Assembly (NCBI GenBank): GCA_965204725.1
Contig: CBDBFD010000001.1
Coordinates: 1 to 51,736, forward strand
Origin: Candidatus Latescibacterota bacterium
GTDB taxonomy: Bacteria > Latescibacterota > UBA2968 > UBA8231
DNA: 51,736 bases
Reading direction: 5' to 3'
The number at the start of each line of letters is the position of its first letter. Position 1 is the stretch's first letter. Positions 12,009 through 31,649 of this stretch are shown in pieces. A program made the position numbers and the translations under genes. A model generated the notes under the pieces. It was not told the origin of the DNA and made no database searches. It saw nothing but the letters and a program-made list of their open reading frames with translations.

Positions 12009-12027
12009 GATAACCTCCTAGCCCCGT

Positions 12028-12531: not shown

Positions 12532-12668
12532 AAATCCTCGTCGCAGCAGGCGAACGTAGCAACCGCCACCATCCCCAGCATAAGCGGCACAAAGGCCAGC
12601 ACAACGGCATCGGTGGCCGTGAGCCATTGGAGATAAGGGATTAGCACCAGAGTAGTCATGGCCGTCAT
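12516..12668 (-). CDS. 50-aa hydrophobic membrane protein not in the ORF track (holin-like candidate)
   Basis: MTAMTTLVLIPYLQWLTATDAVVLAFVPLMLGMVAVATFACCDEDLWPPS; ATGA overlap with the upstream stop; overlaps the next start and fills the gap. Confidence 0.55.
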   Translation of the reverse strand: MTAMTTLVLIPYLQWLTATDAVVLAFVPLMLGMVAVATFACCDEDLWPPS

Positions 12669-13695: not shown

Positions 13696-13960
13696 CGCGT
13701 CTATCCCGCTCCCTAAGCAGCTCCCGTATCTCGCGGTGATCGGCCCGGTTGTGCTCGTCGTTCTGCTGGATCAACAATTTCAAATCATCGACCTGCTGCT
13801 GGGTGGCCCGCTTGTCGATGCGCTTGTGCATGTCGCGCTCCAGCTTGTCGAGGTCGCTCTTGGACGGCGTGTTACGCAGGGCCTTCACAATGAAGCCAAT
13901 GATGGCGACCAGCACTGTGCCGTGTACGCCGAGCACTTGGTAGAGCGTTGTATCTTCCAT
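13688..13960 (-). CDS. Membrane-anchored coiled-coil protein (holin-like candidate), 90 aa
   Basis: One N-terminal hydrophobic helix (VLGVHGTVLVAIIGFIV) followed by a charged coiled coil. Confidence 0.5.
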   Translation of the reverse strand: MEDTTLYQVLGVHGTVLVAIIGFIVKALRNTPSKSDLDKLERDMHKRIDKRATQQQVDDLKLLIQQNDEHNRADHREIRELLRERDRRDG

Positions 13961-13963
13961 GAC

Positions 13964-16957: not shown

Positions 16958-16974
16958 AGCAAGCCTCAGATAGA

Positions 16975-17014
16975 GGGGTAGCTGAGGGACACGGAAAGCC
17001 CCTCAGCCTGCCCC
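16975..17014 (-). terminator. GC hairpin after the major capsid gene (terminator or mRNA-stabilising stem)
   Basis: gctgaggg/ccctcagc stem with a gggg/cccc extension; U-tract weak. Confidence 0.45.
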
Positions 17015-17033
17015 AGTGAAAGCTAAGCCACCG

Positions 17034-17981
17034 TTACAGCGCGGTGACGTTCAGATATGCGGAGCAAGAGGTGTCGTTGAAGTTGACCACCTCAGCGAAC
17101 AGCGTCACCCGGTAGATGCGACCCAGGTTGCCCTCCGCATAGCCCACGTCCACGACCTGCACACCCGGCATGGCGTCCGGCGTGATGGCCGCGAGACCCT
17201 TCGTCTTGCTGCCATCGTCGAACTTGACGGCATAGATGGTGCGGACTTGGCCCGTACCCTTCGTGGTCTCGGCGATATGGCCGTTGAACAGGATGGGCAC
17301 ACCGCGATACGCCTCCACGGTCTGCATCTCCATCTCCCCGGTGAACATATTGGGGATATTGACCGTCTCGGTGATGCCTGCGCCACCCGCGGCCCGCTGG
17401 GCCTTAGCGTAGCTGTTGAGCATCGTCGGGTGCATGATGAAGGCGTCCGTGCCGTGCTGGTTCTGCACGATGAGCTCGTCCAGCATGGCGAGGTCAAACG
17501 GGTCGCCGTTGGTGCTGGTGCTGTTGAGCTTCTGGCTGCCCTTGATGACGTCGGTGTCATCGAGGCCCTGCAGGCGCGTACCGGAGCCGTCCCCCGGGCC
17601 GTTGCCATTGATGAAGTCGTCGTCGAAGAAGCGAGAGACCCGCTCGGTGTGGAGGTCGATCTGACCCATCAGAAAGCCCGCGTCGCCGTTGTAGCTGGCG
17701 TCGAGGTCGATCTGCGAGTAAATGGGCTTCCACCGGCGGTTCTTCTGCGTCCACGTGGGGGCCGCCCGCGCCGAAGCAGCGACAGGCGCATACGCGCCCG
17801 AAGCGGCAGCACTGGCCGCGCCCAGGGCGTCAATCTCGTTCCACTGAACACCCGACGCGGGGCTACCGATAAACGGCAGGCGCGACAAGATGTTGCTGGA
17901 ACGGGTGAGGTTATTGGCAATACGCTGCGCGAGGTCAGGGTGACGTTGCGCCGTGTACTGCGCGAGAGTAGTAGCAGGCAT
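17034..17981 (-). CDS. Major capsid protein, 315 aa
   Basis: AGGAGG RBS; ILSRLPF, DFINGNG, LQGL, DLAMLDEL, FIMHPT and YRGVPI match HK97-fold MCP patterns; follows the scaffold. Confidence 0.9.
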   Translation of the reverse strand: MPATTLAQYTAQRHPDLAQRIANNLTRSSNILSRLPFIGSPASGVQWNEIDALGAASAAASGAYAPVAASARAAPTWTQKNRRWKPIYSQIDLDASYNGDAGFLMGQIDLHTERVSRFFDDDFINGNGPGDGSGTRLQGLDDTDVIKGSQKLNSTSTNGDPFDLAMLDELIVQNQHGTDAFIMHPTMLNSYAKAQRAAGGAGITETVNIPNMFTGEMEMQTVEAYRGVPILFNGHIAETTKGTGQVRTIYAVKFDDGSKTKGLAAITPDAMPGVQVVDVGYAEGNLGRIYRVTLFAEVVNFNDTSCSAYLNVTAL

Positions 17982-18020
17982 CGTGCCTCCTTATGCCTGC
18001 CCTCAGTCTTGCCTACGGGC

Positions 18021-18785
18021 TTAGCGCCCTATCTGAGCCACTAGCTCCGCATCCGTCTTGGTGATGGTCGGCTCGCGGCTCATGCCCGACTGGGGCGGCT
18101 GATTAGCGGGCGATGCCACTTGCGCGGGGAGGACCTTCTTAAAGCCCTCGTCCTTGAACGCCGCGTCAAGCAGATCGTCCAGAGTGTATGGAATACGATT
18201 GATCCCATCACTGGCCAGTCGAGTAGCGGGTCGGCCATTCGCATCTAAGACCGTGATGCTCTCCACACCCTTATCATCCCGATCCAAGCGGATGCGGTCT
18301 GACAGTTTCGCGCGGAGAGTGTCCAGCGGACTGAACGAACCAAGAGCCAACGGATCGTCGCTCTGGCCGTTCTCAGATGCCGTGTCGGGCGTCAGCCGCC
18401 GGGCAAATGCTGACACAAGTTTATGATCCAGCGCGGTCGTGTCAAGCCGCGACTGTAGGTCGTCAATCTTCTGCTTGGCATTCTCTACGGACTGCTCAAG
18501 CTCTTTCTCGCGCTCGCCGGGCGTCCCTTTGGCCTTCTCAAGCGCGGCTTGCGCCTCCGTGAGCTGGGTCGTCAACGCCTCCTTCTCGCCAGTCAGGGCC
18601 GCTACGGACGCCTTCTGCGTATCCAGGTCGCTGAGGATGCTGGCGTTGTTGGCGACGCTCCAGCCCTCGCCCGTGACCTGTAGCCGCCACGAGCTACTGC
18701 CATCTTGCCGCTTGTTCTCCACATAGTGCTCACGCAGGCTCTCAGGCACTTCCTCTTGCGTCTTGTAATCGGGCGTGAGGGCCAT
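18021..18785 (-). CDS. Capsid scaffolding protein, 254 aa
   Basis: EEVPESLREHYVE N-terminus and a long acidic coiled coil; immediately upstream of the MCP. Confidence 0.8.
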   Translation of the reverse strand: MALTPDYKTQEEVPESLREHYVENKRQDGSSSWRLQVTGEGWSVANNASILSDLDTQKASVAALTGEKEALTTQLTEAQAALEKAKGTPGEREKELEQSVENAKQKIDDLQSRLDTTALDHKLVSAFARRLTPDTASENGQSDDPLALGSFSPLDTLRAKLSDRIRLDRDDKGVESITVLDANGRPATRLASDGINRIPYTLDDLLDAAFKDEGFKKVLPAQVASPANQPPQSGMSREPTITKTDAELVAQIGR

Positions 18786-18788
18786 GGC

Positions 18789-19328
18789 TTACACCTCCGC
18801 CGGGGTGATAGGCGGCGGGATGGGCTGCGTCAGCTTGCGACACAGGCTATCCTCTTGCGACCACAGGTAATCAATCAGGTTCCTTAAGGCGTCTTGGCTG
18901 GTCGCCGCATCGCCATACGCCTTGTCAATCACGCCCTTATCAAGCGCGATACCCGTGCCGCCGATACGACGCAGGGCCAGCCGCACCTCATAGTTGCTGA
19001 AGCTGACGCCATTGCGAGCCTCGGTCAGCTTGCGACACAGGTGGCCCTGGGCCCAGTTACCCGCCCCATCGCGCCGATCCACCGCCGGGAACCGCTCCTG
19101 CGGCTCATTGGGTTGGAGGTTGAGGGCGGCCATGCTACGCACGTTGCGCGGAAAGATCACGCGATCATCGCCGTAGGGCTGAATTTTCACGCCCGCCTCG
19201 TCCATCACCTCCGTCGGCAGCGAGTGCAGGCTACGGAGGAACTGAGCCTCGTTCTTGAGTTCGTACACGCGACCCGCAAAACCGTCAAAGGTCTTGGCGG
19301 CTGCGGACTCCGGTTGCTTCGTTGCCAT
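18789..19328 (-). CDS. Hypothetical head-module protein, 179 aa
   Basis: AGGAG RBS; tightly packed between portal and scaffold; no family recognised. Confidence 0.7.
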   Translation of the reverse strand: MATKQPESAAAKTFDGFAGRVYELKNEAQFLRSLHSLPTEVMDEAGVKIQPYGDDRVIFPRNVRSMAALNLQPNEPQERFPAVDRRDGAGNWAQGHLCRKLTEARNGVSFSNYEVRLALRRIGGTGIALDKGVIDKAYGDAATSQDALRNLIDYLWSQEDSLCRKLTQPIPPPITPAEV

Positions 19329-19329
19329 C

Positions 19330-20748
19330 TTACTCTCCTTCCGGCGGGTCGGCCGGGGAATTAGGCGGATCAGGCGGGTCCGCCCGATTACCGCTGGGAT
19401 TTAACAACATTGTTTCCTCAAAAGACCGATCAATCGTCACCGCCAGATTAGACGGCGGCTCCCGGTCGAGCAGGCGATAGGCGAGGCGACACGCCTTCGT
19501 CAGGGCATCGTCCACATTCTGCACCGCACTACGCACCGCCGCCCGTGCTGCCACCGTACCCAGCAAGGTCTGCGTCGCCGTCACATTCGGCATCGGCTGG
19601 GCGGACACCTGACCAGCAAAGCGGCCCTGCACATAGTCAATCATCTCGCGGATGCTATTGGAGATAGGCTCAGCCGCGCTCGTGTCCGGCCCCACGTAGA
19701 ACACATCGCCATCCTTGCCAATCAGAATGCGCTGGCTTGTCTGCACATCCGTCGTGGAGGAGAGCACGTTGCGCTCCGTGCTGGCCTCGGCTTGACGCTT
19801 CTCGCGCTCAGCCCGCTGAACCTCTTTCAGGTTCACTTCCTTCAGCACCTGCCACCGCGTCATCGCCGTGTGCAGGTAGTGGTTGCGCGCATTCTGCTGC
19901 GAGTAAATCTCTATGTTCACGGCAGCACAGTCCGCAAACGGCGGGCGACCAATCATAGGGGCCTGCGGCTGGGACGCATAGCACTGGACGATGGGCGGCC
20001 CCGACAGCGTCAACTCCTCGTTGGCACTATACGGCATGTACGGCACATCGTCCGGGTCGTCAGCCAGCACGTCCTTGACGTTGCCCTGGCCGCGCTTGAC
20101 ACGCAGCTCCTTGAAGCCACGCGCATCGTAGTAGAGCACTGTCGCCTGCAGCGCGTGCTCGCGGTCGTAGTGATACTGAACCTCCCGTATCTCCTCAACC
20201 TGCTCACGCCGGTTCGTCAGCCAGTCATAGACATTGAGCGTCGGGAGCAAGCGAAAGTAGGGAGCGAGCCGACGCTGCTCGTAATCGAAGATGGAAGGGA
20301 CACCATCAAACGCAGGCAAGAACACGCCGATATGGGCCACACCATAGGTCAGCACCTCGCGCAACGCATTCTCAGCAAACTCCGTCAGGGTGCTCCCGCC
20401 GCCGTCCACATCCTCTTGCCACGCCTGTGGCAACGCACTGTCAGCCCTCAGCACCACCGGCTGGCTGAACGGCGCGGTCGAGAGTGTGTGGATACCATGC
20501 GCGTAGTAGTTCTCCAGCACCGCCCGCTCGGTGCGTATCAGGTAGTCGCTGTCGCGCTCCCCCTGCTGCTGAGGCAGGTAGCGGCTCGACAACGCCTGCA
20601 GGCGCGGCTGACCACCGAGGACGTCCACAACAGGACGCCAATGGCGCATCGAAAGGCTGTAGAGCGGGTGCTCGTCGAGGCCGTTGGTGCCGCGGACGAT
20701 AGCCCCGTCAGACGCATTGGCATTGAGCCTATTTTGAATTTCCGTCAT
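19330..20748 (-). CDS. Portal protein (DUF4055-like), 472 aa
   Basis: YLPQ...E..DY..R..RA...NY, DVDG.G..L..F, PPF.D.A.VN and TAT motifs; follows TerL. Confidence 0.9.
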   Translation of the reverse strand: MTEIQNRLNANASDGAIVRGTNGLDEHPLYSLSMRHWRPVVDVLGGQPRLQALSSRYLPQQQGERDSDYLIRTERAVLENYYAHGIHTLSTAPFSQPVVLRADSALPQAWQEDVDGGGSTLTEFAENALREVLTYGVAHIGVFLPAFDGVPSIFDYEQRRLAPYFRLLPTLNVYDWLTNRREQVEEIREVQYHYDREHALQATVLYYDARGFKELRVKRGQGNVKDVLADDPDDVPYMPYSANEELTLSGPPIVQCYASQPQAPMIGRPPFADCAAVNIEIYSQQNARNHYLHTAMTRWQVLKEVNLKEVQRAEREKRQAEASTERNVLSSTTDVQTSQRILIGKDGDVFYVGPDTSAAEPISNSIREMIDYVQGRFAGQVSAQPMPNVTATQTLLGTVAARAAVRSAVQNVDDALTKACRLAYRLLDREPPSNLAVTIDRSFEETMLLNPSGNRADPPDPPNSPADPPEGE

Positions 20749-20757
20749 GTCGTCAAT

Positions 20758-21999
20758 TTACACGTAGCGAGAGTAGGCGTCAAGGTTCCATACGCCACTT
20801 GCGAGGTATCGTAAAGCGTCCACAGCGTGATCGTTCTCTTTTACCGGCCCATCCTCGCCACGCGCCGCCTTCTTCTCGTCGTACACGTAGCCCTGTAACT
20901 CCTCAATGAGCCGCTCGCAGCGTTCAAGGATGTAGATGGTCGGCTTCTCAAGCTGCACACGCAGGCAGGCTATACCCGCCAGCACGTCCTTCTTCACACT
21001 CGGCAGGTAACAGTCCATCGAACGATACTCAGCCACATCGCCCGCCGCCGCCGGGTCCACGTAGAAGCCGCTGGCGTCCGGCCAGTCCGCCCCTAGCATA
21101 TTCTCCCGCTGTCGGGCGATCACCGCCTTTGCGTGTTCCCGCGGTGTCCGCTCGCCATCCTCGGGCCGAAAGTAGTATTCGTCGTAGATCAGCAGGTTAT
21201 CCAGCCGCGTCCGCGCCCCATAGACGGCGGCATAGGGCACAGCATAGCCTACATCCACCGCCACCAGCACCTCCTCGATGTAGGCGGTCGGCAACTCCCC
21301 CTCCTTGACCACTGTGAACTGCGGAAAGATGGCCCCCGACGCCACCGCCCACTCCCCCTCGACCAGCCGCGTGTAGTCCGCCCCGGCGAATAGCCCGCGG
21401 TAGAACGCGCGGTTTGACTCAGCCAGCGTCGGGTTGTCGTTCAGTGTGAAGTGCAGCGAGCGATCAATCGTCCCCCCGTCGTCGATCCGCTTCTTTAGCC
21501 ACGAGGTCGGCGCGGTGGGATTAGCACACATCCACACCTTCCCATTCGGCATCGTCACGCGGCTGAGGATGCGATTGACAAAATCTTCGGACAGAAGGGA
21601 GGCCTCGTCTATCAGGGCGCAGCAGGCACTAAATCCCATTGGAGCCGCCTCGCTGAGGATATTCTCCCCCGCCAGCAGCTTGTATTGCTGGTCGCCTATA
21701 TGCAGCATCGACCGCCCCCGGTCATACCGGCTGGGGATACCCGCATCATCGGCAAAGCCACGCATCGGCGCGACAATCGCCTCCTCTATCACGGAGACCT
21801 TGCGGCCAACCAGCAGATGCAGGTAGCCCGGCGGCAACGGCGGCATGGTGGCCGTGTAGAGGAACAGGCCCAACGCCGCGCTCCACGTCTTGCCGCTGCG
21901 TATCGCGCCTACGCTGGCGACGGTGCGCGGCTTGTCGGTAGGGGTCGTCCCCCAGCCAGCGAGAACCTTCTGCTTAGGGCTAAGCGTCGCTCGAGGCAT
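20758..21999 (-). CDS. terL: Terminase large subunit (probable start MPRATLS at 21999)
   Basis: Walker A GAIRSGKT, Walker B LIDEA, ANP coupling motif, RNase H-like VDVG and NDHAVDALRY. Confidence 0.95.
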   Translation of the reverse strand: MPRATLSPKQKVLAGWGTTPTDKPRTVASVGAIRSGKTWSAALGLFLYTATMPPLPPGYLHLLVGRKVSVIEEAIVAPMRGFADDAGIPSRYDRGRSMLHIGDQQYKLLAGENILSEAAPMGFSACCALIDEASLLSEDFVNRILSRVTMPNGKVWMCANPTAPTSWLKKRIDDGGTIDRSLHFTLNDNPTLAESNRAFYRGLFAGADYTRLVEGEWAVASGAIFPQFTVVKEGELPTAYIEEVLVAVDVGYAVPYAAVYGARTRLDNLLIYDEYYFRPEDGERTPREHAKAVIARQRENMLGADWPDASGFYVDPAAAGDVAEYRSMDCYLPSVKKDVLAGIACLRVQLEKPTIYILERCERLIEELQGYVYDEKKAARGEDGPVKENDHAVDALRYLASGVWNLDAYSRYV

Positions 22000-22393
22000 T
22001 GGCTTCGGCCTTGAGGGAGGCGAGCAGATCATTGAGCAGGGAGGCATCGACACCACTGGATTGAGCGGCCTGTGCCCGCTGCCGCTCACGGACCATCGCC
22101 GCCGCCTCTTTTACGCCGCGCCAGTCCTTCGCTTCGAGGGCCATCTCGCGAACCTTAAAGGGGGCCTCGGCCTCTTGCTCGGCGGCAAGCGCATCGCGCA
22201 CCGCTTCGTGCAGTACAAAGTGCGGACGCTGCCATTGAGGCCCCTCCCCTTTGTAGCAACGCCAGCGCGAAACCAAATAGGTCGAATAGCGAATACCAGC
22301 CTGCTTACAGGCCCACTGAATACCCTTCCCGTAATAGAGGTTCTTCTCAATATCACGGAGCTTGTCAGCCGTCAATTTTATCGGAGGTGCCAT
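21980..22393 (-). CDS. terS: Terminase small subunit, 137 aa
   Basis: HTH-like ACKQAGIRYSTY and KDWR motif; overlaps the terL start. Confidence 0.75.
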   Translation of the reverse strand: MAPPIKLTADKLRDIEKNLYYGKGIQWACKQAGIRYSTYLVSRWRCYKGEGPQWQRPHFVLHEAVRDALAAEQEAEAPFKVREMALEAKDWRGVKEAAAMVRERQRAQAAQSSGVDASLLNDLLASLKAEANASSDA

Positions 22394-22480
22394 AACGCGC
22401 GTGCGTAGAAGAATGGGGATTACAATTACAAACGCCTAATCAGTCGTCCGTCCGGTTACCCCACGCCATCCGCCCCAGTA

Positions 22481-22723
22481 TCAGCAGGCGAGGAACCGAT
22501 AGACGATCTTACGGTCGCTCTCTTTCTCGTCCTCTGATAGGTCGCAGTACGCCGTATCCATTTGCCGTTTCCAACGCTCTACGAGATCGGCGGGTATCAC
22601 CAAGCTGCCATCTTCGCGCGGCTCGCACTTGCTGAACTGGTAGCGCATCCAGTGCGACCAGATGATATGCTGGGCATCTGCTGCCTGTTCCAGCGTCAGG
22701 TTGATTTTGGGAGGGGCCGCCAT
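22481..22723 (-). CDS. Stand-alone RyR-domain-like protein, 80 aa
   Basis: A..H..W and Y.DLSEDEKESDR match the ends of the RyR repeat domain. Confidence 0.6.
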   Translation of the reverse strand: MAAPPKINLTLEQAADAQHIIWSHWMRYQFSKCEPREDGSLVIPADLVERWKRQMDTAYCDLSEDEKESDRKIVYRFLAC

Positions 22724-22724
22724 C

Positions 22725-23117
22725 TCAGACCTCGTGCTTCCCTTCCACGCCGCGCGCCTCGCGATCCCGCGTCCGCGCCTGCATCTCGCGGATCGCCGCC
22801 TCCAGGTGCTCTATCACCCGGGCGTTGCTCTCGCAGGCGAACTGCGTACTCTGGTAGAAGTGCATGCGGTCGAGCACCGCGCCGGTCACGGTCTCGACAA
22901 ATGAGCCATTTTGTCTATATCTGTTTTTGCCCTCCCGCAACGGGCCGTGCTGCCACGCGATGCCAAACCCCGGCCCGGTGCTGTTGCCGCCCCCCGGGTT
23001 GCCGTCCGCGTCTAAATGATGGATGGAGTCGAAGTCGGTGGACTGGGGATGCGCGGACGCCGGATCCTCCTCGGTCGCGTCCAGTATCTTCATCTTCGCT
23101 GCAAACTGTGGGGCCAT
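22725..23117 (-). CDS. tad1: Tad1/Acb2-family anti-defence nucleotide sponge, 130 aa
   Basis: WQHGP..E...NG, DR..FYQ..QFAC.SNA....LE.A and RT..RE.RGVEG.H follow the Tad1 pattern FQNG..NG..RL..FQ..F.CREN..A..KLEEA..RT..R..RGVEGTH. Confidence 0.82.
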   Translation of the reverse strand: MAPQFAAKMKILDATEEDPASAHPQSTDFDSIHHLDADGNPGGGNSTGPGFGIAWQHGPLREGKNRYRQNGSFVETVTGAVLDRMHFYQSTQFACESNARVIEHLEAAIREMQARTRDREARGVEGKHEV

Positions 23118-23164
23118 AGTCTCTGTCTCTCTCCGGTTAGCCGGTTAGGGATGGATGGATAAAG

Positions 23165-23320
23165 AGTGCCGGGGGCCTACCCATTGACTGATGCGCCGGT
23201 CACGGGGGCCGGTTGCCCGGTAGCCCTACCGACACAGGGAGACTCGAACTCCCATTCCCCGGCGATACCGCGGGGCGCGGCTGGGGTGAGTTATGTCCTC
23301 GACGACCCAGCCGCCCCCTA
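23165..23320 (-). ncRNA. Candidate structured RNA / 5' leader with a tRNA-type T-loop
   Basis: Stems found by eye: gcggctggg/cccagccgc; gccgggg/ccccggc enclosing gggag-TTCGAGT-ctccc and tgtgtcggt/accggcgca with a ccgg-GCAA-ccgg tip. Confidence 0.5.
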
Positions 23321-23332
23321 TCGCGCGATACG

Positions 23333-23363
23333 ATAATAAACACACCTACGCCGCGCACGTCAA
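23333..23363 (-). promoter_or_regulatory. Candidate promoter for the tad1/late transcript
   Basis: TTGACG-N19-TATTAT on the minus strand; the spacer is long. Confidence 0.35.
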
Positions 23364-23750
23364 CGCGATGGTGCGATGGCTGACATTCAGCTTGTCGGCG
23401 GCTTCGTCATTGGTGATCTCAGGATCAAGGGGCAAATTTGCCCCTTGATCCGACACCCGCACCGTGCCACGCTCAACCGCCTCAACAACGGGCGGCTCGG
23501 CGTCACGTAGGACAGACTTGGCGGTTCGGACACTGCGGGGGCTGACGTTCAGCTTGTTAGCTGCTTCCTCGTTGGTAATTTCTTTTCGAGTAGGCAAATT
23601 TGCCTCGTCGAAATTCTCGTCTTGCTCGCTTGGACGGTCGCCGCCGCTTTGGGCATCGGCCAGCCGCCCCGCCACGATAGCCCGCTGGCTCTCGCTCAGG
23701 TGCCGCCGGTGCAGGGCGCGGCGCGAGACAGGAGACAGAGGAGGGTCAGT
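23346..23750 (-). pseudogene. Truncated ParB-associated HTH remnant with an internal duplication
   Basis: Frame reads DPPLSPVSRRALHRRHLSESQRAIVAGRLA, with an upstream in-frame TGA and no start before the motif; ANLP...EITN.EAA.KLNVS occurs twice. Confidence 0.55.
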
Positions 23751-24120
23751 CCGTCACTCGCGCTTGCAGTGCCACCCACGCCTCGTAAATGGCCACCAGC
23801 CTCCCCCGGTGCTCGGCGGGCAACCCATCGCTGGGTAGGACGGACGGCCAGCCCGGAGGCAGCGGGTGGTCGATGCAGTCGAGCACATCGCAATCGCGGG
23901 CGAAATCGTAGATGATGCGCCACTGGCCCTCAGTATCGCCCAGTCCATCCGGGTCAAGGCAATCGTCCACCGGCGTCTCGGAGATCAGCGCGGCAATCGA
24001 GTAGGCGGCTACTTCGGGGTCATCATTCCAGTCCTGCCAATGCTGGCGCACATCGGCGGCGATACGGCTGACGGCAGCGGCGATACGGCTGGCTTCTTCG
24101 GTGTGAATCGTAGTGATCAT
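23746..24120 (-). CDS. Hypothetical protein, 124 aa (paralogue of 24196-24519)
   Basis: Shares IHT, AADVR..W.DW, IA.LI..TPVD and RL.AIY.AWV.L with its neighbour. Confidence 0.75.
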   Translation of the reverse strand: MITTIHTEEASRIAAAVSRIAADVRQHWQDWNDDPEVAAYSIAALISETPVDDCLDPDGLGDTEGQWRIIYDFARDCDVLDCIDHPLPPGWPSVLPSDGLPAEHRGRLVAIYEAWVALQARVTD

Positions 24121-24195
24121 GCGGCAATCCTTCGCTTGGCACCGGGCCTCCCCCCTTAGCCAGCTTTTGCCTAAGCCATTCCCGCCGCACAGTGG

Positions 24196-24519
24196 TTAGT
24201 GTGATACGCTACTCTTCAATGACACCCACGCCGCGTAAATGGCCCGCAGCCGCGCGAGGTCGCCCCCGGGCAGGGACAATAGTTCCGCCCGATCCAGCGG
24301 GCGGACAGGCAACCCCTCCACGCCGCTGTCGAGCAGGAAGTCGAACACCAGCAGGCATTGGGTATCAGCCAGATCGTATTCGCACAGGTAGCCGTCCACC
24401 GGCGTCTGCGCGATCAGATGCGCGATGCGGGCCGCGCTGCCCGGCGACCAGTCGCGCCACGCGGAGCGAACATCGGCAGCGAGGGCGCGGTGAAACTGAG
24501 TGTGGATTACAGCGGTCAT
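24196..24519 (-). CDS. Hypothetical protein, 107 aa (MTAVIHTQ; paralogue of 23746-24120)
   Basis: GGAG RBS before ATG 24519; similarity to the paralogue starts here. Confidence 0.75.
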   Translation of the reverse strand: MTAVIHTQFHRALAADVRSAWRDWSPGSAARIAHLIAQTPVDGYLCEYDLADTQCLLVFDFLLDSGVEGLPVRPLDRAELLSLPGGDLARLRAIYAAWVSLKSSVSH

Positions 24520-24544
24520 TGCGGTCTCCAGTGGGTTAAATGGG

Positions 24545-24862
24545 TAGTGTAACAGCAAAATGCCGTTACAGGGCAAAAATGCCGTTACACTCGTAAGATG
24601 TTGTTTTATACAGACTTGCGGCCACAAAAATCGAAAGTGTAACAGCAGTAACGGCATTTTCGCATTTCTGGCCTCACGCATGCGCGCGAGGCTTATCAAT
24701 ACAGCCCCTTTGCTGTTTTTCTTTCGCTCGCATGCGCGAGATGTTGTAAAAATGCTGTTACTGCAGTTACACATTGCTGTAAGTTCCTGTCTCGCATCCA
24801 TTTGCGGCGTAACGGCAAACATTGAAAATGCCGTTACAATGCCGTTACATGCCGTTACGGTC
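24545..24862. repeat. Iteron-like repeat cluster, putative replication origin
   Basis: Five direct ATGCCGTTAC copies plus inverted or variant copies (GTAACGGCA, GTAACAGCA, ATGCTGTTAC) in an AT-richer tract just after the primase stop. Confidence 0.75.
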
Positions 24863-24866
24863 GCCA

Positions 24867-27296
24867 TTAGTGATATGCGTGTGCGGGCAAGTCGCCGTTG
24901 GCTTGAAGCCGTGCGGCCGTGCGTTCCCCGGCGGTTAGGTCGTGTCCGTTTGTTGGCTTGGCGGCCTCTGGCGCGGCCTCTGGCGTGTGCGTAGGGGCGG
25001 TGTCGTTGTAGGGGTTATCGTCTTGGTCTGCTGCGTCATAGCCGTCGTATAGGTCGCCGTCCTCGGCATTACGCCACGTCATTCGCACCCCTCGCAGGAT
25101 GCGTTGCGGCTTGCCGTCTATCCGTTGCGAGAGGCTCTCTATCGAGGGCATGACCTTTTTCAAGTTCCGGCCAAACCACGCGCTGTTCTGTCGAGCGGCC
25201 TGCTTGTCGGCATTATTATTCTCGGCCCAAGCCTTCCACGCCTTGAACACTTCGGCGGCGATCTCTGAGGAGCCTTCCTCGGCCACCAGCGTGTCCGCAG
25301 CGAACTGCGCGATGGGGTTGTGCTCGTGGGCCATAGCCTTAGTCTCGCCGATTAAGAGGGCCTCGTTATCGAGCTGTCCTGTTTGGACATAGCGCGCGGC
25401 GCGGCAGGTCATGTTCCACGCGAGGGCGGGCACTTCTGGTTCCAGCTTGCTGATCAGTGCGCGGTCGCGTTCATCTTCGGGTATGTCGGGGAATAGGATG
25501 GTCCAGAGGCGTTCGCGTAGGGCGGTGTCGTTGCCGTCGATGGTCATGCGGTCGTCTTGCCCGACGATGGCGAGGAAGGCTGTGGGTCGGAATGAGAGCG
25601 TTTCGCCGCCCTTCTTCTCGGCATGGACCGTTCCGCCGCCGCCGGTATAGCTGAGAAACTCGGTAGCTTTCATGGGGCCGGAGGGGTCGGTGATGGTTAT
25701 GAGTCGCTTGCCGAGGTGGGCGAGCAGGTGGTGGTCGTGTCTGTCGCGGTAGCCGAAGAAGTATCCGGGTGCGGCCTCGATAAAACCGCCGTCCTTTCCG
25801 AGGATGCGGTGTCCGAGAATCTCGCTCCAAAATAGAGACTTTCCGTTGCGCCCCCCGCCGCGCCCCACAAAGGCCCGCTCTGCTCGCCTGCTTCCTTGCA
25901 GTGAATAGCCCCCGGCGTCCAGCAGGGCCTCTGTCTTGTCGTTTCTGAGCACCCGCCGCATGGTCTGGTCAAAGATGGGTGTTGGGCCATCGGCGGGTGT
26001 GCAGGCCAGTTCCCACGTGAAGCCGTGTTCGGGTAAGCGGTCGCTCTCGTAGGTGTTGCGCGGCGCGTCGGGCGCGAACTTGGATAGGTCCCACACCTTG
26101 CCGCCGGGGATGGGCAGCAGGTGGTCTTGCCCCGTCAGGCTGTCGGGGCTGCTGTCGAGGATGCCGCGGTCGTCTTGGAACACCTCTGCGGCAATGGCCA
26201 TGCGTCGCCGGTGCTTTTTGAGGGCGCTGGTCTGCTCGGCTATGGCCTCCCTGATGGCCTGTATCCCTTCCTCGTCCTTTTTCTTCGTCGCCATAGCGAG
26301 GGCTGGCTCGAAGTGGTCGCTGATGCGCTGAGGCAGGTACTTGTCTATGCAGCGCGCGACCGCGCCATTGGGCCTCGTTCCGGTCAGCGGCTCCCATAGC
26401 CTACGCTGGCCGTCGAAGCGATAGACCTGTTGCGATGGCATCACCCGCAGGCTTTGTGGCATAGGGGTCTGGTCGAGCAGGTACTGTGCCATTGACGCAT
26501 CCTCGAGCACGGCGCTGTTGAGTGCGTCTTGCACTTCGCTTGACAGGGGCTTCTTGTCGGCGGGTTGGCCTGTCTTTCCCTTGATCTTTGGAACGCTGGT
26601 ATGCTCTTGTATCTGGCTCCAGTCGCCTCCGCTGGCGAGCCAGTCGTCCACGCCTGCCGTTGGGTTGTTCTTGGGCGCGGGGAAGGACAGCATCTTGACC
26701 GTCCCTATCGCCTTAGTGCTCTTGCCGGTGGCGAGGAACTTCTGTGCAGCGTCGTTGACTTGGGGATTGGTGCGAAAGTCGGCGTCGAACAGGCCGCGCA
26801 CATCCTTGTCGTTGCAGAGGGCTATTATCTCTACCCGCAGCCCCCCGTCCTTGACCCATCCGTAGCATCCCTGCATGGCGATGATGGATAGGTTGGGTTG
26901 GGCCGTGGCGACGGCATCGGCTTGCTTGACGCCCTCGATGAGATAGACCGTATCAGCCTCTGGTTTGTAGTGGAGGGTGTCGAGCAGGCTGGGCTTGCCG
27001 GTGGCGGTGACATACTTGATGGTTCCGCCGTCTTTGTTGGTCACTGGCTCAATGAGCCGTAGCTGGCCGGCGGGGTAGTCGCTGTTGGGGGGCGTCAGGG
27101 GTATCCAGAAACCTGCGCCCCAAAAGTTTTTAGGGATGCCCTCGGGCTTGCCGATGGCCGTAAACTGGTTCGGCTTTACCGCTTGGTATCCGCGTGCGCT
27201 GGCGACCTCCTCGCTAATGGCGGATGCCTTGAGGGTGTCCTCCAGGTACTGTTCGGGTGTGGGGGTACTCGTGCTAGTGCTTGTGCGGGTAGCCAT
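24867..27296 (-). CDS. Primase-helicase replication protein (TOPRIM/DUF3854-like + D5/P4-type SF3 helicase), 809 aa
   Basis: LIEGVKQADA, FDAD and GVDDWL TOPRIM motifs; Walker A G.GRNGKS; TGG..AEKKG..F.P and D.AL.ER helicase motifs; C-terminal winged-helix-like segment. Confidence 0.9.
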   Translation of the reverse strand: MATRTSTSTSTPTPEQYLEDTLKASAISEEVASARGYQAVKPNQFTAIGKPEGIPKNFWGAGFWIPLTPPNSDYPAGQLRLIEPVTNKDGGTIKYVTATGKPSLLDTLHYKPEADTVYLIEGVKQADAVATAQPNLSIIAMQGCYGWVKDGGLRVEIIALCNDKDVRGLFDADFRTNPQVNDAAQKFLATGKSTKAIGTVKMLSFPAPKNNPTAGVDDWLASGGDWSQIQEHTSVPKIKGKTGQPADKKPLSSEVQDALNSAVLEDASMAQYLLDQTPMPQSLRVMPSQQVYRFDGQRRLWEPLTGTRPNGAVARCIDKYLPQRISDHFEPALAMATKKKDEEGIQAIREAIAEQTSALKKHRRRMAIAAEVFQDDRGILDSSPDSLTGQDHLLPIPGGKVWDLSKFAPDAPRNTYESDRLPEHGFTWELACTPADGPTPIFDQTMRRVLRNDKTEALLDAGGYSLQGSRRAERAFVGRGGGRNGKSLFWSEILGHRILGKDGGFIEAAPGYFFGYRDRHDHHLLAHLGKRLITITDPSGPMKATEFLSYTGGGGTVHAEKKGGETLSFRPTAFLAIVGQDDRMTIDGNDTALRERLWTILFPDIPEDERDRALISKLEPEVPALAWNMTCRAARYVQTGQLDNEALLIGETKAMAHEHNPIAQFAADTLVAEEGSSEIAAEVFKAWKAWAENNNADKQAARQNSAWFGRNLKKVMPSIESLSQRIDGKPQRILRGVRMTWRNAEDGDLYDGYDAADQDDNPYNDTAPTHTPEAAPEAAKPTNGHDLTAGERTAARLQANGDLPAHAYH

Positions 27297-27299
27297 TGA

Positions 27300-27432
27300 T
27301 GGCCTCCTGCCGCGTGTGCGGCGTGTAAAGTGAACCTCCCAAGTGACCGCCGTGCGGCCCGAAGCCGAAGCCCGGGCCGCCGGTCACTTTACAACAGGAG
27401 GGTAATCCTGTGCGAGGCGCGACCCTCGCGGC
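27300..27432 (-). promoter_or_regulatory. Structured 5' leader of the primase gene with alternative anti-SD pairings
   Basis: Anti-SD CCTCCTG and TGTAAAGTGACCG each have two mutually exclusive downstream partners. Confidence 0.55.
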
Positions 27433-27440
27433 GCAAAGAG

Positions 27441-27469
27441 ATAGTAGCTATAACTGAACGGGTTGTCAA
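27441..27469 (-). promoter_or_regulatory. Sigma70-type leftward promoter
   Basis: TTGACA (27464-27469)-N17-TACTAT (27441-27446) on the minus strand. Confidence 0.8.
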
Positions 27470-27508
27470 GGGGGTTTTATATTTCTTTGAAAAAAGTTTC
27501 TCAGTCCC

Positions 27509-27537
27509 TTGCGCGAACTTTGAATGGTGGTTAGTTT
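27509..27537 (+). promoter_or_regulatory. Candidate rightward promoter
   Basis: TTGCGC-N17-TAGTTT in the AT-rich divergent region upstream of the RHH gene. Confidence 0.4.
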
Positions 27538-27578
27538 TTTGTTTCCACGAACCAATACCCTAAAGGAGGGCGCATAGT

Positions 27579-27764
27579 ATGGCTACACGGAAGGACGAAG
27601 TGAACTTGGGCTTCTATGTCTCGCGGGGCTTCGCTCAAGAGGTCAAGCGGGCGGCTAAACAGGTCGGTTGTACCAAGTCGCGCTTGCTGCGTAAAGCCTG
27701 CTTCGTAGGCTTGGAGCAAGCGAAGGGCTTGGTTGCCGCCGAGATCGCAAAGGAGCGTGTGTGA
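27579..27764 (+). CDS. Ribbon-helix-helix (CopG/Arc-like) regulator, 61 aa
   Basis: Beta strand VNLGFYV, helix, G.TKSRLLR; AAGGAGG RBS; first gene of the rightward arm. Confidence 0.65.
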   Translation: MATRKDEVNLGFYVSRGFAQEVKRAAKQVGCTKSRLLRKACFVGLEQAKGLVAAEIAKERV

Positions 27765-28234
27765 TGGCAGGTAAAAAGGTTTTTGAGCACGAAGGTATTA
27801 TCTTCCGCGAGCGCGATGCGGAGGAGGGTCTGGACGGCTCTAATCCTCCGGGGGCACTTGATGTGTATGTAGCGGTTGAGAACAAGGACGTGGACATTTG
27901 GTATGGGACTAAGGAGTTCCACTTCGCTTTTGTCTGTGTCCATGAGAGTGTTCAAGATAGGTGGGGGTCTATTTATTTCAAGGATGGAGACGGCTGGTAT
28001 GCTGACAACTTTGAGACTTTGGCGCATATCGCGGAGGGTGGCAAGCGGGGGGAAGGCGCGGCGTCTTTTGCTGATAAGGTTCGCGGCCGTGTGGAAGATG
28101 TCCACAAGAAGCTCGGTTGCTCCACTGAGTTCGCTATTCTTGTTACTCAGCTTGAGTGCGAACATTCGCACTATCCGTGCTCTACCTTTAGCGTAGAGGC
28201 ACGCCCACAAGGAGGCTTAGCATGCGCGATATAA
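27761..28234 (+). CDS. Hypothetical protein, ~157 aa
   Basis: AAGGAG RBS; overlaps the RHH stop; T-rich codon usage. Confidence 0.65.
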   Translation: MMAGKKVFEHEGIIFRERDAEEGLDGSNPPGALDVYVAVENKDVDIWYGTKEFHFAFVCVHESVQDRWGSIYFKDGDGWYADNFETLAHIAEGGKRGEGAASFADKVRGRVEDVHKKLGCSTEFAILVTQLECEHSHYPCSTFSVEARPQGGLACAI

Positions 28235-28320
28235 TCGGGCTAGTTTTATTCGGGGCGTCGGTGGGACTATTCATATTCGTCCTGCTGTCCAAGATTTGGA
28301 GGCTATCGCTATGTCCGTGA
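28222..28320 (+). CDS. 32-aa single-helix membrane peptide not in the ORF track
   Basis: AAGGAGG RBS; MRDIIGLVLFGASVGLFIFVLLSKIWRLSLCP. Confidence 0.55.
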   Translation: MRDIIGLVLFGASVGLFIFVLLSKIWRLSLCP

Positions 28321-28586
28321 CCTCGAAGCTGAAAGACGAACTGGCCCGGTGTCGGACGGCGTATACCGAGATGCTGGGCGAGAAGCAGCGGCTGGCCGAT
28401 CATTGGGCCAAGACCGAGTCCGATAAATGGCGGGCCGTGGGCGAGCGCGACGAGGCGCGACGGCAGGCCAAGCACAACCGCCGACTGGCGGATGGGTATC
28501 GGCGGCAGCGCGACAGGGAGCGTGCGCGGGTCGAGGAGTTGGAGCGGGAGCTTGAGGCGTTGGGCGGGGCCAGTGTGGTGGCGTGA
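28311..28586 (+). CDS. Coiled-coil hypothetical protein (MSVTSKL)
   Basis: GGAGG RBS; ERDEARR-type coiled coil. Confidence 0.65.
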   Translation: MSVTSKLKDELARCRTAYTEMLGEKQRLADHWAKTESDKWRAVGERDEARRQAKHNRRLADGYRRQRDRERARVEELERELEALGGASVVA

Positions 28587-29368
28587 TGGTCCGTTCCCTG
28601 CTCCAATATCCCGGGGGGAAATTTCGCGGTGTCCCCGCCCTCCTACCCTATATTCCACCGAGACGGCGGGTAGTATCGCCCTTCTTCGGCGGCGGCACTC
28701 TGGAGCTAGCACTAGAGCATCGGCGGCAACCCGTGCGCGGCTATGACCTGCTCGCGCCGCTGGTGTCGTTTTGGCAACACGCCATCCGGGATGCCGCCCA
28801 ACTAGCAGAGGAGGCGGCTCAATACTTGACGCTTGACAGACCGCAGTTCCAGCGATTACAGCAGAGCCTAATGAGCCTGACGGGTTTCGAGCAAGCAGTC
28901 GCCTTTTATGTCCTAAGCCGTACAGCGTTCAGCGGGATGGCGTTGTCGAGCGGGATGAGAGATAGGGGTGTGAGCAATCGTTTTACGCCCAGTATCTTGC
29001 GCTCACTGGCGGCGTTCCGCGCCCCCTTCCTTGAGGTCGAGCAAGCCGATTTTCGCGAGGTGATACCCGCGCATCCTCAAGACTTCCTGTTCTTGGACCC
29101 GCCCTACATGGTGAACACCAAGCTATACGGCTATCGCGGCGACCTGCACGACGGCTTTGACCACGAGGCCCTGTGGTGCCTCCTGTTGCGCCGGAGCGAT
29201 TGGGTGCTGACCTATAACGATTGCCCAGAGGTTCGCGCTCTGTATGCCGGATGCGCGATTGACAAGGTGTCTTGGTCGTATGGGATGAACCGCTCCAAGC
29301 AATCGTCCGAAGTGATTATCCGTCCGGCGGGCAGTGCGCCGCTGGCGAAACAAATGGAGCTATTCTAA
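28583..29368 (+). CDS. Dam-family (D12 class) N6-adenine DNA methyltransferase
   Basis: YPGGK, SPFFGGG and FLDPPY motifs. Confidence 0.92.
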   Translation: MMVRSLLQYPGGKFRGVPALLPYIPPRRRVVSPFFGGGTLELALEHRRQPVRGYDLLAPLVSFWQHAIRDAAQLAEEAAQYLTLDRPQFQRLQQSLMSLTGFEQAVAFYVLSRTAFSGMALSSGMRDRGVSNRFTPSILRSLAAFRAPFLEVEQADFREVIPAHPQDFLFLDPPYMVNTKLYGYRGDLHDGFDHEALWCLLLRRSDWVLTYNDCPEVRALYAGCAIDKVSWSYGMNRSKQSSEVIIRPAGSAPLAKQMELF

Positions 29369-29655
29369 TGGCCTCTCCCGTGCGGCTGCAACCGCCTCGC
29401 CGGTGCGGTGCGCCTGAGTGCGGCCAGTGGCTGCCGCGGGTGAGGGCGTATAATCGCGCCTACTGCAATCACCAGTGTCGGGCGCGGGCGTGCCGTGCGC
29501 GGTTTGGGGCGCGCTATCTGACGGAGGTGCAAACGCGGTCGCGCCGGACGCGGTCGCAACGGCTGGCGCGGGAGAATGCGGAGCTGCGGCGGCGTCTGGC
29601 GGGGCAGGCGGCCGTCACCCCACAGTCAAAACAACCCAACCCAACGGAGGACTAG
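29368..29655 (+). CDS. Zinc-finger protein (MASPVRL)
   Basis: C-x4-C...YC-x3-CR; TAATG overlap with the upstream stop. Confidence 0.65.
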   Translation: MASPVRLQPPRRCGAPECGQWLPRVRAYNRAYCNHQCRARACRARFGARYLTEVQTRSRRTRSQRLARENAELRRRLAGQAAVTPQSKQPNPTED

Positions 29656-29656
29656 T

Positions 29657-29875
29657 ATGACCTATCCCAGCAAGCCCATCCACGAGCAGCCCGACGACGT
29701 CTCGGCGGAACAGGCCGCGGCGAACTATCGGGCGTTGCGTTTTTTAACAAACCAGGGCTACGCCCCGACACAGGAGACCATCGACAAGGTCGAGCGGCAG
29801 ATGGACCGGTCGTCGCCGCCGATGGTGCCGCCCCGCGTCCGGGGGAATGTCAAGCGTCGCGGGCGGCCGCAGTGA
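29657..29875 (+). CDS. Hypothetical protein, 72 aa (MTYPSK)
   Basis: GGAGG RBS before ATG 29657. Confidence 0.6.
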   Translation: MTYPSKPIHEQPDDVSAEQAAANYRALRFLTNQGYAPTQETIDKVERQMDRSSPPMVPPRVRGNVKRRGRPQ

Positions 29876-31517: not shown

Positions 31518-31649
31518 TTCTACTGGCCGGCCCCGCGTGTGAACGCCCCGGCCCCGCGCGGGATCGTCCCGCGCCGCATCGGAAGGGCGGGGCAACGATG
31601 CGGGCCTTTTCCCTGAACCTGAACCTGAACCTTTGACAGGAGAGTGATT

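What the first reader, a model, noticed from the sequence alone, without database searches (positions are those of the whole stretch)
22481..22723. Stand-alone RyR-like domain right behind Tad1: candidate new anti-defence factor
Seen: an 80-aa ORF starting one base after the tad1-like stop, with H..W and Y.DLSEDEKESDR motifs. Established: RyR repeat domains occur in bacteria and phages, and anti-defence genes tend to cluster. Inference: it could be a second small nucleotide-signal sponge or an immune decoy co-expressed with Tad1. I know of no demonstrated function for it.
Basis: partly seen in the sequence, partly recalled or inferred. Interest (0 to 1): 0.7.

Follow-up and report, generated by a model that had tools for sequence, protein, structure and literature searches.

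The report
Minimal RyR-repeat gene behind Tad1
Right behind a known immune-signal sponge gene, this phage encodes an 80-residue, stripped-down relative of the ryanodine-receptor-type domain that two 2026 preprints showed phages use to trap or destroy bacterial alarm nucleotides; this short version has not been tested.

Summary
ORF 22481..22723 (-) encodes 80 aa and starts one base after the stop of a Tad1 homologue, which matches solved Tad1 8kbb at E 2.5e-6. It carries H19..W22 and Y59-x-DLSEDEKESDR71.

The ORF itself gets no Pfam hit. Its family does: 34 of 48 homologues match PF02026 RyR at E<=0.01, and the family profile hits solved RyR repeats at E 1.2e-9. Most members score below Pfam's cut-off.

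RyDEP (PMC13232231) cleaves 2'/3'cADPR. RyR Tad (PMC13251945) sponges these signals.

The window protein keeps three of RyDEP's four ligand residues (H19, W22, D70) and has Arg for the fourth. It lacks the N-terminal half of their domain. It is predicted to form a tight homodimer (ipSAE 0.88, best control 0.00).

The Tad1 plus RyR-like cassette recurs in an unrelated podophage contig.

Best reading, about 50%: a dimeric binder of TIR-made ADPR signals, probably a sponge. Other contexts, such as fusions to dCMP deaminase and neighbouring terminase genes, keep rivals alive. I rate it a new variant of a known kind.

The parts
22481..22723 (-). 80-aa gene for a minimal, divergent single RyR-repeat domain. 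Putative ligand residues are H19, W22, R53, Y59 and D70.
   Evidence: ORF. Family and Pfam RyR hits. Profile hits to solved RyR repeats. Residue register against RyDEP and RyR Tad. Conservation. AF2 model with pLDDT 90.1. Predicted homodimer.
22725..23117 (-). Tad1-family gene (130 aa), first gene of the two-gene cassette.
   Evidence: PDB 8kbb Tad1 at E 2.5e-6. phrog_2428 at 2.2e-18. 8 of 10 homologues carry PF24729. Alignment A7.
22724..22733 (-). Junction: one base between the Tad1 stop and the RyR-like ATG, with a GAGG 6 nt upstream of the ATG. Probably translational coupling.
   Evidence: Read from the sequence. The same cassette in L079 has overlapping stop and start (ATGA).
23118..23345 (-). 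228-bp non-coding gap upstream of Tad1. A terminator-like hairpin lies at 23366..23348, at the end of the preceding HTH gene. The cassette's own promoter may lie here, but none was detected.
   Evidence: 0 sigma-70-like sites and one terminator-like site on the minus strand. These are consensus scans only.
22394..22480 (-). 87-bp gap between the cassette and the next minus-strand gene (21980..22393), a weak small-terminase candidate.
   Evidence: ORFs. phrog_4102 'terminase small subunit' at only E 0.095. The following ORF 20758..22089 has sub-threshold terminase nuclease-domain hits.

Best explanation
The ORF is a real phage accessory gene. It encodes a minimal RyR-repeat domain: one repeat of 80 aa. 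It corresponds to helices alpha3-alpha4 of RyDEP / RyR Tad, with an extra beta-hairpin and a short helix. Inferred mechanism: two copies pair into a symmetric dimer that stands in for the two-repeat, R12-like unit. His19, Trp22 and Arg53 of one chain, together with Tyr59 and Asp70 of the other, line nucleotide pockets at the interface. The dimer binds ADP-ribose-derived alarm molecules made by bacterial TIR (Thoeris-type) systems. It more likely sequesters them (sponge) than cleaves them. This would blunt the host effector alongside the Tad1 sponge, with which it is co-translated. Shown here: the gene is real, it is homologous to the RyR repeat, three of four ligand residues are conserved, the model supports a dimer, and the cassette recurs. 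Inferred: the ligand, the choice of sponge over enzyme, and the anti-Thoeris effect.
For: (1) Homology. 34 of 48 family members hit PF02026 at E<=0.01. The family profile hits RyR repeats in PDB at 1.2e-9 to 1.2e-4, in two blocks that cover the H..W helix and the PYxxLxxxEKxxDR helix.
(2) Function of the parent family. RyDEP is a dimeric glycosidase for 2'/3'cADPR with residues H75, W78, H100 and D117, and 6 of 8 viral homologues bind these signals (PMC13232231; sections 2-5, 22, 27 read). RyR Tad (CB1 gp68) is a dimeric sponge with Kd 43 nM for 1''-3' gcADPR. Its binding residues are H129/W132, K147/H154 and K170/D171 (PMC13251945, passages only).
(3) Residue register. In a domain-trimmed L-INS-i alignment, H19, W22, R53, Y59 and D70 align with RyDEP H75, W78, H100, F106 and D117. 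In 148 representatives these positions are kept in 143, 147, 130 (R or K), 142 and 144 sequences.
(4) Dimer. ipSAE was 0.88 in each of three runs, and the best of 3 controls scored 0.00. The runs agree in at least 97% of contacts, and partner pLDDT is at least 89. The mark was reached by 20 of 30 proteins solved as pairs and by 1 of 23 solved as single chains. These counts hold only roughly, because my own alignment was used and ADP-ribose rode along. Contacts include H19(A)-D70(B) and H19(A)-Y59(B). Solved RyR-repeat dimers exist, so the pass may partly come from memory. A natural tandem two-domain member also exists (P0083).
(5) Context. The gene is coupled to Tad1. A Tad1 HMM finds Tad1 within 4 kb in 5 of 80 loci, which is 4 of 73 non-redundant loci. 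The same-strength tblastn finds Tad1 in only 123 of 50,697 phage records, or 2.3 Gb. That gives about 0.03 expected in these loci.
(6) Cassette mobility. L079 shares only the two-gene cassette with the window. There it sits between portal and capsid genes of a different phage type.
(7) Other counter-defence genes. The phage also carries three DNA methyltransferases.
(8) Possible host. The chromosome contig binned with the phage has 6 ThsB_TIR places and 6 TIR_2 places over cut-off. Among them are TIR genes next to SLATT and 8xMP membrane proteins.
Against: The window protein itself has no Pfam hit at E<=1. Of 7 relatives scored individually, only 1 exceeds the RyR cut-off: they score 16-29 bits against a cut-off of 27.4. 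hhalign of the family against the RyDEP clade is not significant (probability 0.35%, E 0.17).

The protein lacks the alpha1-alpha2 half that forms half of the pocket and the dimer interface in RyDEP and RyR Tad.

Of the six RyR Tad contact residues, three differ: K147 becomes D46, H154 becomes R53 and K170 becomes S69.

The reverse test fails. 0 of 80 Tad1 loci have this gene or a RyDEP-type gene within 4 kb.

Neighbours across 73 loci are heterogeneous. A terminase subunit is present in 14, thymidylate kinase in 4, ThyX in 3 and a C5 methylase in 3. 3 of 25 long forms are fused to dCMP deaminase.

The phage-host link rests only on co-binning and similar composition. No spacer match was found, and genome contamination is 9.97%.

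No binding, cleavage or protection has been measured.
Confidence: 0.5

Rival explanations
1. It is a nucleotide-metabolism accessory domain. The repeat binds an ordinary nucleotide (ATP or a dNTP) and tunes or scaffolds phage dNTP-synthesis enzymes. It is not an immune antagonist.
For: 3 of 25 long ORFs fuse the domain to the C-terminus of a dCMP deaminase. In L007, L011 and L021 the fusion sits between thymidylate kinase and ThyX. Thymidylate kinase is a neighbour in 4 of 73 loci and ThyX in 3 of 73. The animal R12 domain binds ATP analogues (PMC13232231 section 4).
Against: The window phage has no such enzymes near the gene: it lies between Tad1 and terminase-like genes. The nucleotide-metabolism contexts come mostly from one jumbo-phage lineage (L007, L011, L021). 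One of those loci (L007) also carries Tad1 1.4 kb downstream. Most of the 73 loci show neither context.
Confidence: 0.2
2. It is a counter-defence sponge or enzyme for a different signal or metabolite, such as CBASS or type III CRISPR cyclic oligonucleotides, cNMPs or NAD+. It would then complement Tad1 across systems rather than within Thoeris.
For: The subfamily has invariant residues of its own that RyDEP and RyR Tad lack: W25 in 146, W51 in 148, Q54 in 147 and S69 in 141 of 148 sequences. Three of six RyR Tad contacts are replaced. This fits a changed specificity. Known sponges bind several signal classes (PMC13251945 passages).
Against: There is no positive evidence for any other ligand. 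The only demonstrated ligands of phage RyR domains are ADPR-derived.
Confidence: 0.15
3. It is a small packaging-associated or regulatory protein that acts on protein or DNA near the terminase, and its RyR-like motifs are structural.
For: A terminase large or small subunit lies within 4 kb in 14 of 73 non-redundant loci. In the window the next genes downstream are terminase-like.
Against: The stretch before the terminase genes is, from general knowledge, a common insertion site for accessory genes. In L079 the cassette sits between portal and capsid genes instead. The near-invariant His, Trp and Asp match ligand residues of RyDEP. No DNA-binding family hit was found.
Confidence: 0.05

Closest known systems
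RyDEP (mycobacteriophage DyoEdafos gp78; PMC13232231, bioRxiv 29 May 2026)
   Same: It is a phage-encoded RyR-type (PF02026-related) domain and a homodimer. His, Trp and Asp ligand or catalytic residues are in register with H19, W22 and D70. It sits among counter-defence genes.
   Different: RyDEP has 138 aa and a four-helix R12-like domain, whereas the window protein has 80 aa and only the alpha3-alpha4 equivalent plus a hairpin and short helix. H100 is replaced by R53. Pfam RyR gives 33.3 bits for RyDEP and no hit for the window protein. The profile-profile link is not significant. RyDEP lies in a NARP1 NAD+ synthesis operon, not beside Tad1. Enzyme activity is unknown here.
RyR Tad (Pectobacterium phage vB_PatP_CB1 gp68; PMC13251945, bioRxiv 5 Jun 2026)
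   Same: It is a dimeric phage RyR-domain sponge for gcADPR in an anti-signalling hotspot. H129, W132 and D171 align with H19, W22 and D70.
   Different: gp68 has 183 aa, with an extra N-terminal domain and a 119-aa RyR domain. K147, H154 and K170 are replaced by D46, R53 and S69. In gp68 the dimer is back-to-back through alpha1 and alpha4. Here the predicted interface uses the hairpin and all three helices.
Bacterial single RyR-repeat proteins (Bacteroides thetaiotaomicron 'putative ryanodine receptor', PDB 3nrt, 6uag)
   Same: Each is a stand-alone single repeat of about 100 aa. The family profile matches them at E 3.1e-5 and 1.2e-4 over the PYxxLxxxEKxxDR helix.
   Different: The middle of the domain differs: the classical GWxYG...HP.LVPY is replaced by DGSxxIPxxxVxRWKRQMxTPY. 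Their function is not known to me.
Animal ryanodine receptor Repeat12 domain (e.g. PDB 6uhi, 4etv, 9l90)
   Same: It has the same repeat motifs, and two repeats pair into a two-fold unit that binds adenine nucleotides (PMC13232231 section 4).
   Different: It is a tandem repeat inside a roughly 5000-aa channel, whereas this is a free 80-aa protein that must pair with itself.
Tad1 (Thoeris anti-defence 1; PDB 7uav, 8kbb)
   Same: It is a small oligomeric phage sponge for gcADPR signals. It is the adjacent, co-translated gene.
   Different: The fold and family are unrelated (Acb2/Tad1 hairpin).

Membership tests
RyR repeat domain (Pfam PF02026) | Score over the Pfam gathering cut-off (27.4 bits) | tested here: not met
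   The window protein has no family at E<=1. Seven relatives scored 16, 26.2, 26.9, 26.4, 26.8, 29.1 and 27.2 bits, so only 1 of 7 is over the cut-off. 34 of 48 hit at E<=0.01, and 8 of 48 carry a precomputed PF02026 hit.
RyR repeat domain (Pfam PF02026) | The two signature helices: ..A..H..W.. and PY..L...EK..DR | tested here: met
   The sequence has A15..H19..W22 and Y59..L62..E66-K67..D70-R71. The family profile aligns these blocks to solved RyR repeats, with 6uhi at 1.2e-9.
RyR repeat domain (Pfam PF02026) | RyR-repeat three-dimensional fold, with two repeats paired in a two-fold unit | tested here: inconclusive
   The AF2 monomer (pLDDT 90.1) has three helices and a hairpin. The homodimer is supported by the model: ipSAE 0.88 against a best control of 0.00. 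No fold search listed a RyR structure.
RyDEP / RyR Tad anti-Thoeris proteins | Four-helix R12-like domain (alpha1-alpha4, about 115-120 aa) | tested here: not met
   The protein has 80 aa. The alignment covers only RyDEP residues from about 65 to 125. No N-terminal half is present.
RyDEP / RyR Tad anti-Thoeris proteins | Ligand or catalytic residues H75, W78, H100 and D117 (RyDEP numbering) | tested here: inconclusive
   H19, W22 and D70 are identical and H100 is replaced by R53. These positions are kept in 143, 147, 144 and 121 (+9 Lys) of 148 representatives. The register comes from MAFFT on trimmed domains. hhalign supports only the Y59/D70 block, and weakly.
RyDEP / RyR Tad anti-Thoeris proteins | Homodimer | tested here: met
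   This is a prediction only: ipSAE 0.88 in three runs, controls 0.00.
RyDEP / RyR Tad anti-Thoeris proteins | Binds or cleaves 2'cADPR / 3'cADPR and rescues phage from Thoeris | not testable with these tools
   This needs biochemistry and plaque assays.
Tad1 family (the neighbour gene 22725..23117) | Sequence match to solved Tad1 proteins / Acb2_Tad1_hairpin | tested here: met
   8kbb at E 2.5e-6 and 7uav at 1.5e-3. 8 of 10 homologues carry PF24729. The window copy itself gave no PF24729 hit at E<=1.

The most novel reading that the evidence does not exclude
The minimal RyR repeat is a separate class of immune-signal sponge. Its pocket is built across a symmetric homodimer interface, with His19 of one chain beside Asp70 and Tyr59 of the other. 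It captures a TIR product that Tad1 does not handle well, for example the canonical cADPR of TIR-SLATT (type VII) Thoeris, a gene pairing that the co-binned chromosome carries. Tad1 plus the RyR-like protein would then be a portable two-sponge cassette giving broad anti-TIR cover, and it moves as a unit between unrelated phages. The family is very large (4098 cluster representatives) and mostly invisible to Pfam. If this is right, much phage anti-Thoeris capacity is currently unannotated.
Probability: 0.2. Interest if true: 0.75.

Novelty: new variant of a known kind. Interest (0 to 1): 0.55.

Why it matters
Phage RyR-domain proteins were shown to be anti-Thoeris factors only in mid-2026, and only for the classical forms that match Pfam. 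This 80-residue form belongs to a large, mostly viral sister group with 1391 representatives at E<=1e-10. Most members fall under the Pfam cut-off, so a survey based on PF02026 membership would probably miss them.

If the group binds TIR-made signals, three things follow. The known anti-Thoeris repertoire grows markedly. We would have the smallest known version of the RyR ligand pocket, built from two chains. It would also be the first case I know of where two different anti-Thoeris binders travel as one coupled cassette.

If instead it binds ordinary nucleotides, as the dCMP deaminase fusions hint, that would show what the ancestral RyR repeat does.

Tried and rejected

hhalign of the family against RyDEP alone and against a 40-sequence RyDEP-clade profile was not significant.

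Whole-length MAFFT mis-registered the N-termini. I replaced it with a domain-trimmed alignment.

The top hit of the exhaustive search, P0049 (2803 aa, 17 stretches), is a low-complexity S/V/P/T repeat protein. It has no significant domain under the family HMM, so I dropped it as spurious.

Megablast of 8.5 kb of the window against the phage collection found no match.

I looked for a host link. There is no copy of the element in the chromosome contig. There is no spacer-like match apart from one 26-nt hit with a mismatch at E 0.01, which is not in a repeat array.

The sigma-70 promoter scan of the cassette region found 0 sites.

The Atlas look-up gave only unnamed, mostly viral clusters, one of which has PF02026 on 14% of members.

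Two antisense-ORF clusters in the neighbour analysis (23 and 12 loci) overlap the RyR-like gene itself. I discarded them as artefacts.

The supplements of both preprints are closed. I therefore could not see whether any of the eight tested RyDEP homologues (H1-H8) belongs to this short subfamily.

Full report
**Observation.** The window carries an 80-codon ORF on the minus strand at 22481..22723. Its ATG (22723-22721) lies one base after the TGA (22727-22725) of the upstream 130-codon ORF at 22725..23117. A GAGG sits 6 nt before the ATG, so the two genes are probably translationally coupled.

The upstream gene is a genuine Tad1 relative. phmmer against PDB gives 8kbb 'Thoeris anti-defense 1' at E 2.5e-6 and 7uav at 1.5e-3. 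It also matches phrog_2428 at 2.2e-18. 8 of its 10 homologues carry PF24729 Acb2_Tad1_hairpin.

**What the element is.** Window positions 1-16818 are identical to 34919-51736 (16818 of 16818 bases). The contig is therefore about 1.48 copies of a 34,918-bp genome. It is contig 2 of a two-contig assembly whose other contig is a 5.38-Mb chromosome. No copy of the element lies in the chromosome.

Downstream of the cassette on the same strand are a weak small-terminase candidate (phrog_4102, E 0.095) and a terminase-large-like ORF with sub-threshold nuclease-domain hits. Upstream are an HTH protein, two paralogous unknown ORFs (39% identity, E 2e-14) and an 809-aa ORF with a weak DUF3854 hit. The element also has three DNA methyltransferase genes.

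**Is it RyR-like?** The protein alone gives nothing: no Pfam family at E<=1, no PHROG and no PDB sequence hit better than E 1.3.

Its family is large and well conserved. One search found 48 homologues at E<=1e-3. The exhaustive search found 4098 representatives at E<=1e-3 and 1391 at E<=1e-10.

- 34 of the 48 hit PF02026 (RyR) at E<=0.01, the best at 8.5e-7.
- 8 of the 48 carry a precomputed PF02026 hit.
- Scored one by one, seven relatives get 16-29.1 bits against a cut-off of 27.4, so only one passes. RyDEP scores 33.3, Ruegeria phage V17 gp52 scores 32.5 and Pectobacterium CB1 gp68 scores 40.4.
- A profile of the family hits solved RyR repeats: 6uhi at 1.2e-9, 4etv at 2.6e-6, and the stand-alone Bacteroides proteins 6uag at 3.1e-5 and 3nrt at 1.2e-4. 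The match falls in two blocks that cover the H..W helix and the PYxxLxxxEKxxDR helix.

This is a divergent sister group of the RyR repeat that sits on the edge of the Pfam model.

Fold searches neither confirmed nor contradicted this. The monomer model (pLDDT 90.1) and a model of a natural tandem relative found no RyR structure.

**What is now known about phage RyR domains.** A literature search found PMC13232231 (bioRxiv, 29 May 2026). I read its abstract, results sections, extended-data legends and figure legends. [quoted passage not shown] H75 and D117 are catalytic, W78 stacks on the adenine and H100 holds the phosphates. Six of eight other viral PF02026 proteins bind the signals without cleaving them. 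A Ruegeria-phage homologue and a Pectobacterium-phage homologue act as nanomolar sponges.

A second preprint, PMC13251945 (5 June 2026), I read only in passages. It names Pectobacterium phage CB1 gp68 'RyR Tad'. This is a dimeric sponge with Kd 43 nM for 1''-3' gcADPR and under 1 uM for 1''-2' gcADPR and canonical cADPR. Its binding residues are H129/W132, K147/H154 and K170/D171.

A search for 'RyDEP' found no other relevant paper. The first preprint does not mention Tad1 (0 occurrences).

**How the window protein compares.** I fetched gp78, V17 gp52 and CB1 gp68. A whole-length MAFFT alignment mis-registered the N-termini.

With the classical proteins trimmed to their RyR repeat, L-INS-i aligns H19, W22, R53, Y59 and D70 with RyDEP H75, W78, H100, F106 and D117. 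The same positions align with gp68 H129, W132, H154, Y160 and D171. gp68 K147 and K170 fall on D46 and S69.

Among 148 representatives the counts are: H19 in 143, W22 in 147, R53 in 121 (plus Lys in 9), Y59 in 142 and D70 in 144. The subfamily also has invariants of its own: W25 in 146, W51 in 148, Q54 in 147 and S69 in 141.

There are weaknesses. Profile-profile comparison with a 40-sequence RyDEP-clade alignment pairs only Y59-D70 with F106-D117, at probability 0.35%. The window protein also lacks the alpha1-alpha2 half of the 115-120-residue domain, which in both published structures contributes half of the pocket and the dimer interface.

**Dimer.** Two copies co-folded with two ADP-ribose molecules scored ipSAE 0.88 in each of three runs. 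The best of three controls scored 0.00, at least 97% of contacts agreed between runs, and partner pLDDT was at least 89. That mark was reached by 20 of 30 proteins solved as pairs and by 1 of 23 solved as single chains. These counts hold only roughly, because my own alignment was used and a ligand rode along.

Solved RyR-repeat pairs exist, so the pass may partly reflect memory of those structures. In the model, strand 40-43 pairs with its twin, and H19 of one chain touches D70 and Y59 of the other. This suggests composite sites across the interface. A natural tandem two-domain protein (P0083; domains 3-84 and 99-180) shows that two such repeats can work together.

**Genomic company elsewhere.** 189 IMG/VR contigs encode a relative, and 80 loci were fetched. 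These make 73 clusters at 90% identity.

- A Tad1 HMM finds Tad1 within 4 kb in 5 of 80 loci: L007, L019, L060, and L076, which is the same phage as L079. That is 4 of 73 non-redundant loci. tblastn alone found 4 of 80.
- For scale, the same Tad1 query finds only 123 of 50,697 phage records in 2.3 Gb. That is roughly 0.03 expected in about 0.55 Mb. This background comes from another collection and a less sensitive method.
- In L079 the two genes are adjacent with overlapping stop and start. The locus shares nothing else with the window in a tblastx against window 16001-35500. There the cassette lies between a T7-type portal gene and a capsid gene. The cassette therefore moves as a unit.
- The reverse test is negative: 0 of the 80 best Tad1 loci carry this gene or a RyDEP-type gene within 4 kb.
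- The commonest neighbours are terminase subunits (14 of 73 loci), thymidylate kinase (4), Tad1 (4), ThyX (3), C5 methylase (3) and ParB_N (3).
- 3 of 25 long ORFs fuse the domain to dCMP deaminase, and 1 fuses it to DUF4031.
- Pfam tallies of immediate neighbours are just as mixed.
- In isolated phages the subfamily appears in 10 records, 8 of them Microcystis phages. RyDEP-type proteins appear in 250 records.

**Possible host.** The chromosome contig has 6 places over the ThsB_TIR cut-off and 6 over the TIR_2 cut-off. Two loci interleave TIR genes with membrane proteins: TIR_2, TIR_2/ThsB, 8xMP, ThsB in one, and ThsB, SLATT/DUF4231, ThsB, 8xMP in the other.

TIR plus SLATT is the layout of type VII Thoeris, which signals with canonical cADPR (bioRxiv 10.64898/2025.12.03.692087, passages only).

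The phage-host link is weak. It rests on co-binning and similar composition only: GC 63.4% against 60.4%, and tetranucleotide correlation 0.91 against 0.86-0.98 for chromosome pieces. No spacer match was found, and assembly contamination is 9.97%.

**Verdict.** This gene is a shorter, divergent variant whose function is untested.

I put about 50% on a dimeric binder of TIR-made ADPR signals. A sponge is likelier than an enzyme, because only 1 of the 9 tested family members cleaves. I put 20% on a nucleotide-metabolism accessory, 15% on another signal or metabolite, and 5% on a packaging-linked role.

Earlier notes of this scan describe host-side TIR loci with RyR domains on other genomes. They agree with the ligand-sensor idea but are not independent evidence.

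Noticed in passing
window 1-16818 and 34919-51736: The two stretches are identical (16818 of 16818 bases). The contig is therefore about 1.48 copies of a 34,918-bp circular or terminally redundant genome. It has no copy in the chromosome contig.
   Followed up: yes
window 28583-29368, 29872-30738, 30735-31517 (+): Three DNA methyltransferase genes lie in a row: two D12-class N6-adenine and one N6_N4 type. They are probably anti-restriction genes.
   Followed up: partly
window 23746-24120 and 24196-24867 (-): Two paralogous ORFs of unknown function (39% identity over 104 aa, E 2e-14) lie between the HTH gene and the 809-aa replication-type ORF. Neither has a Pfam hit.
   Followed up: partly
G000 C1:4756354-4758161 (L102) and C1:4152462-4154400 (L103): Two chromosomal loci interleave ThsB-like TIR genes with small membrane proteins (8xMP PF24838; SLATT/DUF4231). 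They are Thoeris-like, and one resembles type VII (TIR + SLATT). The 8xMP partner was not found in the preprint passages I searched.
   Followed up: partly
L007:1623-2810, L011:3125-4222, L021:2855-4222: Jumbo-phage contigs encode dCMP deaminase fused to a C-terminal copy of this RyR-like domain. Thymidylate kinase lies upstream and ThyX downstream. L007 also has Tad1 1.4 kb further on.
   Followed up: partly
L019:3725-4261: Here the RyR-like domain is fused behind a DUF4031 domain, in a 168-kb viral contig that also has Tad1 1.4 kb downstream.
   Followed up: no
protein P0083 (183 aa, metagenome): This is a natural tandem duplication of the RyR-like domain (residues 3-84 and 99-180). Its AF2 model was only moderate (pLDDT 79.2).
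   Followed up: partly
window 34184-41566 (-), also 1-6648: A very long ORF (2460 aa) lies in a 35-kb phage genome. I did not examine it.
   Followed up: no
L084:4010-4252 (Microcystis phage Ma-LMM01 gp044): This isolated cyanophage's 'hypothetical protein' gp044 belongs to the short RyR-like subfamily (48% identity to the window protein; Pfam RyR 16 bits). It could serve as a culturable test case.
   Followed up: partly
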